64,000 nt of DNA from Deltaproteobacteria bacterium (GTDB lineage: Bacteria; Myxococcota; JADLHZ01), in the NCBI GenBank assembly GCA_020848545.1, contig JADLHZ010000104.1, positions 72,306 through 136,305 of the forward strand, given 5' to 3'. The translations under genes were made by a program, and so were the position numbers. Of the stretch, positions 61,718-63,817 are shown piece by piece (the first letter of the stretch is position 1; each line of letters opens with the position of its first letter). A model generated the notes under the pieces. That model was not told the DNA's origin. It did not search any database and was given only the letters and a program-made list of their open reading frames with translations.

Positions 61718-63817
61718 ATGTTAGCATTTGGAATGCCGCTGAAATCCAGGCTCATTCTGACGACCTCTGGATTGCTCGTGCTCGTCACGTTGGCCATCAG
61801 CAGCTACTTCGTGGTTCGCAACCAGCGCGACCTCGATGAAGCGAACTCGAACAAGTACGCGATGATGCGTCATGAGCTTGCGAAGAAGGGGTCGGTGCTC
61901 GCGAGAAACGTCGCGATCGCTTCCGAGCGCGCCGTTGCGGTGCTCGACTTCTTGTTTTTGGCCGAGGTGATCTCGAGCGCCACTCAGCACGATTCCGAGA
62001 TCGTCTACGGCATCATCCTCGATAAAGAAGGAAAGGCACTCGTCCACAGCGACGCGCGACAGAGCGGAAAGAAGCTCGACGATCCGGCTACGCGGCGCGC
62101 GATCGAGAGCGCCGATGGCTCGGAGTTGGAGATCTCCTATTCGGGTCGTCCAACGCTCGACGTCAGCGCGCCGATCGTCGTGGCCGGCAAGCCGTGGGGC
62201 GCCATTCGTTTCGGGCTGTCGCTCGACGGCGTCAACGCGGAGATCTCCAAGAACAAGGCGCAGGCAGAGGAAAAGCTGCGCTCCGGGTTGATCGTCGCTG
62301 GCAGCGCCGCAGCGTTGCTGCTCATGTTCGCCGCCTTCATTGCAACCATCGCCTCGGCTCAGATCGTCGGCCCCGTCGACGCGCTCATCTCCGGCGTCAA
62401 CCGTCTTCGAACGGGTGACCTCTCCACCCAGGTCGGGGTGAGCGGCATTCCGGAGTTCATCGGCTTAGCCCAAGCATTCAACGACATGGCCAACGCGATC
62501 AAGGAGCGGGACGAAGCGCTCACGCAGAACAACAGGCAACTGGAGAAAGCGCTGGCAACAGCGAACGAGGTTAACCGCTTGAAGAGCGAGTTCCTCGCCA
62601 ACATCTCGCACGAGCTGCGCACGCCGCTGAACGCGATCGTCAATGTCCCGAAGATCCTCCTGGCCGAGTATTCCAATGTCCCAGTGTGGACGTGCCCGCG
62701 CTGCCACGCCGAGTTCGAAGGGGAATTTTCGGCGGTCGGCTCAGACGAGCCGGAGCATTGTCCTGATGACGGCGCCGAGATGCTGCTCGGCAAACGCACA
62801 ATCTCCACCGGCGTTCCGGAAGAGCAGCGCCACTTCCTGAGTCGACTACTCCACCAGGGCCAGCATATGCTGAACGTCGTCAACGAGCTCCTGGATTTCA
62901 GCAAGCTGGACGCCGGAAAGATGGAGCTACACATCGAGCAGGTCGACATCGGTCGCGTGTTTGCAGACGTCGAGCAAACGATGCAGGGGTTGGCGGCGGA
63001 AAAGCGGCTGACCGTGCACTTTCCCGATCTGGCCGACGTGCGTTTGGTCCGGGCGGATCCGGTCAAGCTGGCGCAGATTCTGATCAACCTGATCGGCAAC
63101 GCGATCAAGTTCACGCCGCCGAATGGCCGCATCGTCATTCAACTGACCAAACGGCAGGTGAATGGCGTCGTCGCTGACGAGATACGCGTCACGGACTCCG
63201 GCATTGGGATCCCGAAGGAACACCTCGAGGCGATATTCGAGAGCTTTCGACAGGTGGACTCGGGCCATACGCGCAAGGCAGGCGGCACGGGGCTCGGGCT
63301 GACCATCACGCGCCATCTCGTCGAGCTGCATGGCGGACGAATTTGGGTCGACAGCGAGCCGAACCAGGGCAGCACCTTCACCTTCTATCTGCCGGTTGAG
63401 GGCAACACTTCGGTCGGCGATTCCGCTGCACAGCCGGCCGCGGTGGGGGCGGCCGAGCTCATCGTCGTCGTCGACGACAACGAAGTGCAGCTCGAGGTGA
63501 TGCGCGTGGTGCTCGAACGCGCCAAGTACCGCGTCGATCTGGTCTCGAACCCGTTGGATGCGTTCGATACAGTGACCCGTCACCGACCAGATTGGATCGT
63601 GCTCGACGTCATGATGCCGCAGGTGAGCGGCGTTGCTTTGTTGAAGCAGCTGAAGGCCGACGAGCGCACCCGGGACATCCCTGTCTTCGTCGCAACGGCG
63701 TACCACGACAACGAACAACAGGTGCGGTCGTTGGGCGCGCTGTGGCTCCCTAAGCCGTGGACCGCCGACGACTTTCAACGCGTGGTGAACGAATACAGGG
63801 TGGGCGCAAAATCATGA
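61718..63817 (+). CDS. Hybrid sensor histidine kinase / response regulator
   Basis: TM, HAMP, H-box FLANISHELRTPLNAI, HATPase_c (GTGLGLTI), C-terminal receiver domain (IVVVDDN...LDVMMP); ATG start. Confidence 0.9.
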   Translation: MLAFGMPLKSRLILTTSGLLVLVTLAISSYFVVRNQRDLDEANSNKYAMMRHELAKKGSVLARNVAIASERAVAVLDFLFLAEVISSATQHDSEIVYGIILDKEGKALVHSDARQSGKKLDDPATRRAIESADGSELEISYSGRPTLDVSAPIVVAGKPWGAIRFGLSLDGVNAEISKNKAQAEEKLRSGLIVAGSAAALLLMFAAFIATIASAQIVGPVDALISGVNRLRTGDLSTQVGVSGIPEFIGLAQAFNDMANAIKERDEALTQNNRQLEKALATANEVNRLKSEFLANISHELRTPLNAIVNVPKILLAEYSNVPVWTCPRCHAEFEGEFSAVGSDEPEHCPDDGAEMLLGKRTISTGVPEEQRHFLSRLLHQGQHMLNVVNELLDFSKLDAGKMELHIEQVDIGRVFADVEQTMQGLAAEKRLTVHFPDLADVRLVRADPVKLAQILINLIGNAIKFTPPNGRIVIQLTKRQVNGVVADEIRVTDSGIGIPKEHLEAIFESFRQVDSGHTRKAGGTGLGLTITRHLVELHGGRIWVDSEPNQGSTFTFYLPVEGNTSVGDSAAQPAAVGAAELIVVVDDNEVQLEVMRVVLERAKYRVDLVSNPLDAFDTVTRHRPDWIVLDVMMPQVSGVALLKQLKADERTRDIPVFVATAYHDNEQQVRSLGALWLPKPWTADDFQRVVNEYRVGAKS

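What the first reader, a model, noticed from the sequence alone, without database searches (positions are those of the whole stretch)
62680..62790. Zinc-ribbon-like CxxC...HC insertion between H-box and ATPase domain of the hybrid histidine kinase
Within the kinase core the sequence VPVWTCPRCHAEFEGEFSAVGSDEPEHCPDDGAEM carries CPRC and HC motifs that typical HisKA-HATPase linkers lack. It may be a metal- or redox-sensing insert.
Basis: seen in the sequence. Interest (0 to 1): 0.4.

Follow-up and report, generated by a model that had tools for sequence, protein, structure and literature searches.

The report
Zinc ribbon inside a kinase's phosphotransfer hairpin
A bacterial sensor kinase has a small, probably zinc-binding, mini-domain built into the tip of the helical hairpin that hands phosphate to its partner; several hundred related kinases share it and nearly always sit next to one particular partner protein, so it may be an undescribed docking or control element.

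Summary
The peptide VPVWTCPRCH…HCPDDGAEM is encoded at window 62678-62782 in a 699-aa hybrid histidine kinase (61718-63817, +).

The placement needs correcting. The roughly 46-residue insert (S319-T364) splits the HisKA/DHp domain between helix α1, which carries the phospho-acceptor H298, and helix α2. It therefore sits at the tip of the DHp hairpin, not in the DHp-to-ATPase linker.

- **Conservation:** It defines a monophyletic kinase clade of about 533 50%-identity clusters, seen with many different sensor domains. The four ligand positions are 100, 100, 100 and 99% Cys (CxxC…CPxC).
- **This protein's variant:** It has Asp at the fourth position (CPDD). Its two His residues are not conserved in the family.
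- **Fold:** AlphaFold2 predicts a confident three-stranded zinc-ribbon-like module (pLDDT 88-97). No Pfam or NCBIfam model, solved structure or searchable paper covers it.
- **Partner:** In 11 of 12 loci examined, these kinases sit directly upstream of one distinctive receiver family (REC or REC-PilZ, motif LYVEDEDxNWE, with a basic N-terminal tail). This includes this window.

The best reading is a structural zinc ribbon that extends the docking and specificity surface for that partner. Redox or metal sensing is not excluded and has no support. I rate it a new variant of a known kind, of moderate interest.

The parts
61718..63817 (+). Hybrid sensor histidine kinase gene, 699 aa from ATG 61718. 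The ORF is open from TTG 61532, and the NCBI model P0121 (681 aa) implies a start at 61772. Architecture: TM, sCache_3_2, TM, HAMP, split HisKA, HATPase_c, REC.
   Evidence: ORF list, translation and Pfam. It is 100% identical to NCBI 'MAG: response regulator [Deltaproteobacteria bacterium]' P0121.
61859..62251 (+). Periplasmic sCache_3_2 sensor domain (residues 48-178).
   Evidence: Pfam PF17203, E = 1.2e-10.
62357..62503 (+). HAMP domain (residues 214-262).
   Evidence: Pfam PF00672, E = 3.7e-07.
62513..62662 (+). DHp helix α1 (residues 266-315). It carries the H-box SHELRTPLNAIVNVP, the phospho-acceptor His298 (62609-62611) and the clade signature N-x-P.
   Evidence: AF2 helix, model residues 2-51. 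HisKA stretch 289-313. N and P of the N-x-P signature are 99% and 100% conserved.
62672..62809 (+). Zinc-ribbon-like insert at the DHp hairpin tip (S319-T364): β1 318-325, knuckle 1, β2 332-334, an acidic loop, knuckle 2, β3 356-363.
   Evidence: Boundaries come from comparison with the insert-less clade member P0162. AF2 block pLDDT is 88-97 in context. The insert folded alone gives the same strands at pLDDT 82. Foldseek neighbours are zinc modules wherever recognisable.
62693..62704 (+). Zinc knuckle 1: C326-P-R-C329.
   Evidence: Both Cys are 100% conserved in 142 homologues.
62759..62770 (+). Zinc knuckle 2: C348-P-D-D351. The fourth ligand position is Asp here (codon GAC) and Cys in 99% of the family.
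   Evidence: Only P0362 (CPEDG) shares the Asp. Changing GAC to TGC or TGT needs two or more nucleotide changes, so it is not a single-base error.
62816..62911 (+). DHp helix α2 (residues 367-398), PEEQRHFLSRLLHQGQHMLNVVNELLDFSKL.
   Evidence: AF2 helix, model residues 103-134. This is the region of the second HisKA stretch (shown split for PDB kinases).
63056..63400 (+). HATPase_c catalytic domain (residues 447-561).
   Evidence: Pfam PF02518, E = 9.1e-34. Foldseek to HK853 gives E = 4.5e-23.
63461..63772 (+). Fused C-terminal receiver domain (residues 582-685).
   Evidence: Pfam PF00072, E = 4.8e-19.
63814..64000 (+). Start of the downstream gene. Its ATG overlaps the kinase stop codon (ATGA). 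It encodes a 165-aa stand-alone receiver of the 'LYVEDEDxNWE' family with a basic N-terminal extension. The gene runs off the window end.
   Evidence: Translation is identical to the first 62 aa of P0431. Pfam Response_reg. The same family lies next to zinc-ribbon kinases in 11 of 12 loci.

Best explanation
The segment is a small zinc-ribbon mini-domain of about 46 residues. It has two knuckles, C326-x2-C329 and C348-x2-D351, that most likely hold one structural Zn2+, plus a three-stranded β-sheet. It is grafted into the hairpin loop between helices α1 and α2 of the DHp (HisKA) domain, at the membrane-distal tip of the four-helix bundle that carries the phospho-acceptor His298.

It arose once and defines a clade of HisKA kinases that has since recombined with many different sensor modules.

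Proposed mechanism (inferred): the ribbon is a rigid, metal-stabilised cap that extends the response-regulator docking surface below the phospho-His. It does so with an invariant scaffold and an acidic inter-knuckle loop. This would help the kinase recognise a dedicated receiver family, either stand-alone REC or REC-PilZ, which has the motif LYVEDEDxNWE and a basic N-terminal tail and is encoded directly downstream. The result would be an insulated phosphotransfer route.

In this particular protein the fourth ligand is Asp, giving a Cys3Asp site that probably still binds metal.

**Shown:** the insertion and its position, conservation, single origin, the predicted fold and the gene linkage.

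**Inferred:** Zn binding, physical contact with the receiver and a role in specificity.
For: **Position.** HisKA is split into two stretches. AF2 gives α1 266-315, strands at 318-325, 332-334 and 356-363, and α2 367-398, with mean pLDDT 90.1 and block pLDDT 88-97 across the insert.

**Conservation.** Of 143 homologues, 138 have CxxC…CxxC, 2 have CxxC…CPxxxC and 1 has the same motif with a longer spacer. C1-C3 are 100% conserved, C4 99%, Pro after C3 93%, and an aromatic residue at C2+4 96%.

**Family size.** An exhaustive profile search found 533 representative clusters at E <= 1e-10. Nearly all of the best 150 match the full profile including the insert; the exceptions are P0344, P0304 and truncated entries.

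**Single origin.** In a neighbour-joining tree built on insert-free columns, all 65 insert-bearing cores form one clade. It contains a single insert-less member, P0162, which has a clean excision.

**Fold.** Modelled alone, the insert gives the same topology. Its nearest PDB neighbours are mostly recognisable zinc-binding modules: PolD DP2, MetRS, MCM N-terminal domain, HypA, Sir2, archaeal ribosomal proteins and HVO_2753. The homologue P0050 passes the Pfam Zn_ribbon_TFIIB threshold.

**Partner linkage.** The gene next to the kinase is the same receiver family in the window and in L081, L082, L083, L084, L085 and L001. Starting instead from receiver homologues, 4 of 5 loci have a zinc-ribbon kinase immediately upstream. 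At least 17 receiver hits lie on contigs of the same length as kinase hits.

**Charge complementarity.** The inter-knuckle loop has mean net charge -4.2 and is negative in 139 of 142 sequences. The receiver N-terminal extension has mean +3.1 and is positive in 92 of 107.

**Background.** Kinase specificity residues lie on both DHp helices below the His and contact receiver helix α1 and the β5-α5 loop (PMC2991266).
Against: - I could measure neither the Cys geometry nor any contact between the ribbon and a receiver.
- The Foldseek matches for the isolated insert are not statistically significant (best E = 0.08, TMq 0.45-0.57).
- Gene adjacency shows that the kinase clade and the receiver family are cognate. 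It does not show that the ribbon itself touches the receiver.
- Charge complementarity is only suggestive.
- The loci sampled are not all independent. L084, L086 and L087 share synteny, as do L088, L090 and the window.
- One receiver homologue (L089) has no adjacent kinase.
- The window protein also has its own fused receiver of a different type, so which receiver the DHp serves first is unknown.
Confidence: 0.45

Rival explanations
1. The ribbon is a purely architectural element of the kinase itself. [quoted passage not shown] It would have no direct role in partner recognition.
For: The DHp loop determines bundle handedness and cis/trans autophosphorylation (PMC3904827 citing Ashenberg 2013). 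The insert is rigidly conserved and confidently folded. The clade also has conserved flanks, N-x-P in α1 and G-D-P before α2, which would fit a fixed geometry.
Against: This does not explain the conserved acidic loop or the tight linkage to a receiver family with a complementary basic extension. The insert-less clade member P0162 keeps the same flanking helices, so the bundle evidently assembles without the ribbon.
Confidence: 0.3
2. The Cys cluster is a zinc-thiolate redox switch, or a metal sensor. Oxidation or metal loss would unfold the ribbon, distort the DHp tip and change kinase, phosphatase or phosphotransfer activity. The kinase core would then have a second, cytoplasmic input.
For: Four invariant Cys sit in a small domain next to the catalytic His. 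These are the only Cys residues in the protein. From my own knowledge, Cys4 zinc sites act as redox switches in Hsp33 and RsrA. Zinc binding to a cytoplasmic PAS domain regulates the kinase WalK (title and abstract listed).
Against: There is no direct evidence. The module is invariant across kinases that already carry very different dedicated sensors, including Cache, PAS, 7TMR-DISM, Reg_prop/Y_Y_Y and STK-AAA-GAF. That pattern is what a core structural part would show. Two members, including this one, replace a Cys with redox-inert Asp and keep everything else. The loci show no redox-related gene context.
Confidence: 0.15
3. In this particular protein the ribbon is a decaying relic. Loss of the fourth Cys would have abolished metal binding, leaving the segment as a non-functional loop.
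For: The fourth ligand Cys is replaced by Asp only here and in P0362. The window copy scores below the Pfam zinc-ribbon thresholds (16.2 bits against a cut-off of 22).
Against: All other conserved positions are retained: three Cys, Pro349, Phe333, Met355 and Gly365. AF2 is as confident here as elsewhere. From my own knowledge of LIM domains, Asp at exactly the i+3 ligand position is a recognised Zn ligand. The same Cys-to-Asp change occurs in P0362, which is only 43% identical. The change has therefore either persisted over long divergence or arisen twice.
Confidence: 0.05

Closest known systems
Canonical HisKA/HATPase_c sensor kinases with solved DHp-CA structures (T. maritima HK853, also in complex with RR468; EnvZ, CpxA, WalK/VicK, GacS)
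   Same: H-box with phospho-acceptor His on DHp α1, a helical hairpin and a GHKL ATPase domain. The whole-model Foldseek E-value to HK853 is 4.5e-23 with TMt up to 0.87. HisKA and HATPase_c pass the Pfam thresholds.
   Different: In all of these the α1-α2 connection is a short loop, with 42-46 residues from the H-box to the α2 anchor. Here it is a folded Cys-rich module of about 46 residues. No solved kinase sequence aligns across it.
Zinc-ribbon and zinc-knuckle modules inserted into larger enzymes (MetRS connective-peptide zinc knuckle, Sir2 zinc module, MCM N-terminal zinc ribbon, PolD DP2 zinc fingers, HypA zinc domain)
   Same: Two CxxC-type knuckles, each at a β-hairpin turn, packed as a small three-stranded sheet and used as a structural plug-in within a host domain. 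These are the top structural neighbours of the isolated insert model.
   Different: The similarity is weak (E >= 0.08, TMq 0.45-0.57). The host is a histidine-kinase DHp hairpin, a context in which I found no described example. The window copy has a Cys3Asp ligand set rather than Cys4.
Zinc-dependent regulation of the kinase WalK through its cytoplasmic PAS domain
   Same: A cytoplasmic metal site within a sensor histidine kinase (bioRxiv 10.1101/405365, title and abstract as listed).
   Different: The WalK site is in a PAS sensor domain, not a Cys4 ribbon and not in the DHp. No regulatory metal response has been shown for the present insert.
Hybrid kinase ShkA and other hybrid histidine kinases
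   Same: A kinase core fused to a C-terminal receiver. ShkA appears among the structural hits (6qrj).
   Different: ShkA has no zinc ribbon in its DHp. From its title (PMC6969517, listed), its regulation is by c-di-GMP-mediated domain liberation.

Membership tests
HisKA-type (class I) sensor histidine kinase | DHp/HisKA domain with an H-box and a phospho-acceptor histidine | tested here: met
   Pfam HisKA E = 4.7e-17, 62.2 bits against a cut-off of 26.9, matched in two stretches. The H-box SHELRTPLN contains H298.
HisKA-type (class I) sensor histidine kinase | GHKL ATPase domain (HATPase_c) with N, G1, F and G2 boxes | tested here: met
   Pfam HATPase_c E = 9.1e-34. NLIGNAIKFT, DSGIGI, FESFRQ and GGTGLGL are all visible in the translation.
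HisKA-type (class I) sensor histidine kinase | Two-helix DHp hairpin packed against the CA domain, as in solved kinases | tested here: met
   AF2 mean pLDDT 90.1 with helices 266-315 and 367-398. Foldseek to HK853 gives E = 4.5e-23.
HisKA-type (class I) sensor histidine kinase | ATP-dependent autophosphorylation and phosphotransfer | not testable with these tools
   This needs biochemistry.
Zinc ribbon fold group | Two zinc knuckles (CxxC or CPxC type), each contributing two ligands | tested here: inconclusive
   The family meets it: 138 of 143 have CxxC…CxxC, with ligand columns 100/100/100/99% Cys. The window protein has C326, C329 and C348, with Asp351 at the fourth position. That is a plausible Cys3Asp site but it is non-canonical.
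Zinc ribbon fold group | β-hairpin knuckles forming a three-stranded antiparallel sheet | tested here: met
   This is predicted only. There are strands at 318-325, 332-334 and 356-363, and a bridge between 347 and 354 around knuckle 2. Block pLDDT is 88-97 in context, and the topology is the same when the insert is folded alone.
Zinc ribbon fold group | Significant structural or sequence similarity to established zinc-ribbon families | tested here: inconclusive
   Foldseek best E = 0.08 and none <= 1e-3, although the top hits are zinc modules wherever recognisable. For the window copy, Pfam Zn_ribbon_TFIIB gives 16.2 bits against a cut-off of 22 and Zn_ribbon_8 gives 14.5 against 34.4. The homologue P0050 reaches 25 bits, above the cut-off of 22.
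Zinc ribbon fold group | Stoichiometric Zn2+ binding | not testable with these tools
   This needs ICP-MS, a PAR assay or a structure.
Zinc-thiolate redox switches (Hsp33 or RsrA-like behaviour) | Reversible Cys oxidation with Zn release that changes activity | not testable with these tools
   Only the presence of conserved Cys is shown. The Cys-to-Asp variants and the invariance across different sensor types do not favour this reading.
Hybrid histidine kinase | Receiver domain fused to the kinase core | tested here: met
   Pfam Response_reg E = 4.8e-19, residues 582-685.

The most novel reading that the evidence does not exclude
The Cys-rich ribbon is a built-in cytoplasmic zinc/thiol switch at the tip of the DHp. 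Its folding state, set by redox conditions or zinc availability, would gate phosphotransfer from many differently sensing kinases to one dedicated REC or REC-PilZ output. The phosphotransfer domain itself would then be a second sensory input and a new kind of checkpoint in two-component signalling.
Probability: 0.12. Interest if true: 0.75.

Novelty: new variant of a known kind. Interest (0 to 1): 0.5.

Why it matters
The DHp hairpin is the most studied surface in two-component signalling. Its loop sets cis versus trans autophosphorylation, and the helices just above it carry the partner-specificity code. A folded, invariant, probably metal-binding domain at exactly this point, in several hundred kinase clusters from largely uncultured Myxococcota, Deltaproteobacteria and Bdellovibrionales-like bacteria, would be a new structural solution at that surface. 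It comes paired with one distinctive receiver family.

If the ribbon contacts the receiver, it is a specificity determinant outside the canonical α1/α2 interface. That would bear on how organisms with large numbers of kinases avoid cross-talk, and on engineering orthogonal signalling pairs. If it instead responds to redox state or zinc, it would be a sensor embedded in the phosphotransfer domain.

Either way, current HisKA domain models split at this point and understate the match. It is reported as 'weak' in precomputed annotations, so a dedicated family model would improve annotation.

Tried and rejected
- **Genome scan.** It returned almost only ordinary kinases, with a single insert-bearing locus (L001, a Bdellovibrionales MAG). 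The taxonomic spread in named genomes therefore could not be measured.
- **Window contig.** The look-up of encoding contigs could not locate P0121, so the region beyond base 64000 was not read. The downstream gene was recovered indirectly as P0431.
- **Taxonomy from clusters.** The listing of cluster members gave little taxonomic information.
- **Model coordinates.** The AF2 coordinates are not exposed. Cys-Cys distances, bundle handedness and the position of the fused receiver relative to the ribbon could not be measured.
- **Foldseek on the isolated insert.** It gave no significant hit. I treat it as consistent with a zinc ribbon, not as proof.
- **Literature.** Searches combining histidine kinase with zinc ribbon, CXXC, zinc finger, DHp, HisKA or insertion found nothing describing this feature. 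The one recurring paper, PMC5847659, mentions zinc ribbons only in an archaeal response-regulator output domain.
- **Rejected: sequencing or frameshift artefact.** The reading frame is continuous, the protein is identical to an NCBI record, and changing the Asp codon GAC to a Cys codon needs at least two substitutions.
- **Rejected: the His residues as conserved ligands.** They are not conserved.
- **Rejected: P0344 as a relative.** This S-layer-type protein has 29 'YWTCSxC' repeats and hit the profile. It is an unrelated Cys repeat, not a kinase.
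Full report
**What is there**

The window encodes, on the + strand, a 699-aa hybrid sensor histidine kinase. 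It runs from ATG 61718 to stop 63817. The ORF is open from TTG 61532, and NCBI's identical protein P0121 starts 18 codons later. Pfam gives sCache_3_2 (48-178), HAMP (214-262), HisKA, HATPase_c (447-561) and Response_reg (582-685). The quoted coordinates are two bases out of frame but cover it.

**Where the peptide sits**

The peptide is not in a linker between the H-box and the ATPase domain. It interrupts the HisKA/DHp domain itself.
- Pfam matches HisKA in two stretches.
- Every solved kinase in the PDB aligns to the flanks only, at profile positions 1-26 and 81-110, and skips the middle.
- In generic kinases the distance from the H-box His to the α2 motif (…LINDLLDxSK) is 42-46 residues. 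Here it is 89.
- AlphaFold2, run on residues 265-699 with a 94-sequence alignment, gives mean pLDDT 90.1. It predicts α1 266-315 (phospho-acceptor H298), β-strands 318-325, 332-334 and 356-363, then α2 367-398. Block pLDDT across the insert is 88-97.

The module therefore sits at the membrane-distal tip of the DHp hairpin. The clade member P0162 lacks it cleanly (…NVPATLLRELDAPEEHKRML…). That comparison places the insert boundaries at about S319-T364, window 62672-62809.

**Is it more than chance?**

Yes. C326, C329 and C348 are the only cysteines in the whole protein.

Searching the 5.8-billion-protein database with the region, and then with the full protein, found many homologues with the same insert. 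An exhaustive profile search of 1.84 billion representatives found 533 clusters at E <= 1e-10. Nearly all of the best 150 match the full profile including the insert; the exceptions are P0344, P0304 and truncated entries.

Of 143 anchor-matched sequences, 138 carry CxxC-(13-30)-CxxC, two carry CxxC…CPxxxC and one has a longer spacer.

Column statistics over 142 non-identical sequences:

| Position | Conservation |
|---|---|
| Cys 1, 2 and 3 | 100% each |
| Cys 4 | 99% |
| Pro after Cys 3 | 93% |
| Phe/Tyr four residues after Cys 2 | 96% |
| Leu/Met after knuckle 2 | 91% |
| Gly before α2 | 87% |
| Clade-specific N-x-P after the H-box | N 99%, P 100% |

The commonest residues at those positions are Gly (40%) and Pro (25%).

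**The peculiarity of this copy**

The fourth ligand position is Asp351 (C348-P-D-D351-G) instead of Cys. Only one other sequence, P0362 from a Myxococcota MAG (CPEDG), shares this, and it is only 43% identical to the window protein. The codon is GAC, so a single sequencing error cannot explain it. All other conserved positions are retained and the structure prediction is confident. I therefore read this as a Cys3Asp site that probably still binds metal. The use of Asp as a terminal Zn ligand, as in LIM domains, is from my own knowledge. H347 or H330 are possible alternative ligands.

**Fold**

Modelled alone with a 59-sequence alignment, the insert gives the same β1-knuckle-β2…knuckle-β3 topology at pLDDT 82. 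Foldseek against the PDB gives no significant match (best E = 0.08). Even so, the top of the list is mostly recognisable zinc-binding modules: PolD DP2, the MetRS zinc knuckle, the MCM N-terminal zinc ribbon, HypA, Sir2, archaeal zinc-ribbon ribosomal proteins and HVO_2753, with TMq 0.45-0.57.

Pfam zinc-ribbon models hit weakly. Zn_ribbon_TFIIB gives 16.2 bits here, below its cut-off of 22. The homologue P0050 reaches 25 bits. No Pfam or NCBIfam model describes the combination, and all NCBIfam kinase models align in two pieces and stay far below their cut-offs. The whole model matches HK853 and other kinases, with extra columns at the insert.

**Evolution**

Insert-bearing kinases come with many sensor architectures:
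- sCache_3_2-HAMP with a receiver, as here
- PAS with a receiver
- 7TMR-DISM
- Reg_prop/Y_Y_Y
- a 425-aa cytoplasmic form
- Ser/Thr-kinase-AAA-GAF-kinase giants
- a protein with two ribbon-bearing kinase cores

These are shown. A neighbour-joining tree on 242 insert-free columns of 120 kinase cores puts all 65 insert-bearing cores in one clade. That clade contains a single insert-less sequence, P0162. The ribbon was therefore acquired once, kept through extensive sensor shuffling, and lost at least once. Source names point to Deltaproteobacteria, Myxococcota and Bdellovibrionales MAGs.

**A dedicated partner**

The kinase stop codon overlaps (ATGA) the start of a gene whose product begins MILKRFDPSS…HVLYVEDEDVNWEV. 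This is the 165-aa receiver P0431.

The same receiver family lies next to ribbon-bearing kinases of every architecture I examined. It carries a conserved M-x-L-x-R-F-x-P start, a basic extension of about 22 residues, the motifs LYVEDEDxNWE, FDLILMDIQLxGS and FVTAYxARY, and an insertion before β4.

| Locus | Kinase type | Adjacent receiver |
|---|---|---|
| L081 | sCache hybrid | REC |
| L082 | Y_Y_Y | REC-PilZ |
| L084 | 7TMR-DISM | REC-PilZ |
| L085 | PAS hybrid | REC |
| L083 | cytoplasmic | REC, one gene away on the opposite strand |
| L001 | 7TMR-DISM | REC-PilZ |

A profile of these receivers finds 1,803 proteins of two architectures, REC and REC-PilZ. At least 17 of the best hits lie on contigs of the same length as kinase hits.

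I also ran the test in the other direction, starting from five receiver homologues on other contigs. Four have a ribbon-bearing kinase immediately upstream and one is an orphan. Some of these loci share synteny, so they are not all independent.

The kinase's inter-knuckle loop is acidic, with mean net charge -4.2 and a net negative charge in 139 of 142 sequences. The receiver's N-terminal extension is basic, with mean +3.1 and a net positive charge in 92 of 107.

**Interpretation**

Two facts about the DHp are established. [quoted passage not shown] 2013). The partner-specificity residues lie on both DHp helices below the His and contact receiver helix α1 and the β5-α5 loop (PMC2991266). A rigid module at the hairpin tip is thus placed next to the receiver docking site.

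My best reading (confidence about 0.45) is a structural zinc ribbon that extends the docking and specificity surface for the dedicated NWE-type receiver. The acidic loop and the receiver's basic tail are candidate contacts.

Rivals:
- a purely architectural role in bundle geometry or oligomerisation (0.3)
- a decaying relic in this copy (0.05)

The redox idea is neither supported nor excluded. Invariance across kinases that already carry diverse sensors, and tolerance of Cys-to-Asp, lean against it.

**Novelty**

I found no description of this feature in searchable papers, no family model and no solved structure. Subscription literature is not covered, so prior description cannot be ruled out. 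I rate it a new variant of a known kind: a HisKA kinase clade with a zinc ribbon inserted in the DHp hairpin and a co-inherited receiver family.

**Limits**

- Metal binding, contact with the receiver and any effect on activity are all inferred.
- The genome-collection scan was unproductive.

Noticed in passing
window 63814-64000 (gene continues beyond the window): The downstream gene overlaps the kinase stop codon (ATGA). It encodes P0431, a 165-aa stand-alone receiver of a distinctive family: an M-x-L-x-R-F-x-P start, a basic extension of about 22 aa, LYVEDEDxNWE, and an insertion before β4. The family occurs as REC or REC-PilZ and is almost always adjacent to zinc-ribbon kinases.
   Followed up: yes
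window 59573-61645 (-) and 57189-59543 (+): A TonB-dependent receptor (Plug plus β-barrel) lies divergently upstream of the kinase. Next to it is a 784-aa sigma-54 activator (Sigma54_activat, AAA_lid, HTH_8) with a long N-terminal region that has no Pfam match. Related loci (L081, L088, L090) also pair the sCache hybrid kinase and its receiver with a TonB-dependent receptor; L088 and L090 add Phosphonate-bd and ABC_sub_bind periplasmic binding proteins, while L081 has a Peripla_BP_6 protein instead. This suggests a conserved uptake-linked signalling module.
   Followed up: partly
P0162 (homologue, not in window): This is the only insert-less member inside the zinc-ribbon kinase clade. The ribbon is cleanly excised (…NVPATLLRELDAPEEHKRML…), which indicates secondary loss and provides a natural 'Δribbon' design.
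   Followed up: partly
P0344 (2220-aa protein from the profile search): A surface-layer-type protein with about 29 tandem repeats of '…TC.A.GNIDYWTCSxCxxxFSD…' matched the first-knuckle part of the profile. It is an unrelated Cys-containing repeat whose function I do not know.
   Followed up: no
P0241, P0283, P0309, P0310 (homologues): The ribbon-bearing kinase core also occurs twice in one 1433-aa double 7TMR-DISM protein. It also occurs at the end of 1,800-1,900-aa Ser/Thr-kinase-AAA-GAF-kinase-receiver proteins.
   Followed up: no
window ~45265 (-): This is a second histidine kinase in the window, with H-box SHEIKNPLTSV and a normal short DHp loop. It has no zinc ribbon.
   Followed up: no
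L081 8673-12589 (-): In a related locus, a second sCache_3_2-HAMP kinase of a different H-box type (ASHDLQEPLR, no ribbon) is encoded next to a REC and a REC-GGDEF-EAL protein, beside the ribbon kinase-receiver pair. Together with the REC-PilZ partners seen elsewhere, this hints at a link to c-di-GMP signalling.
   Followed up: no
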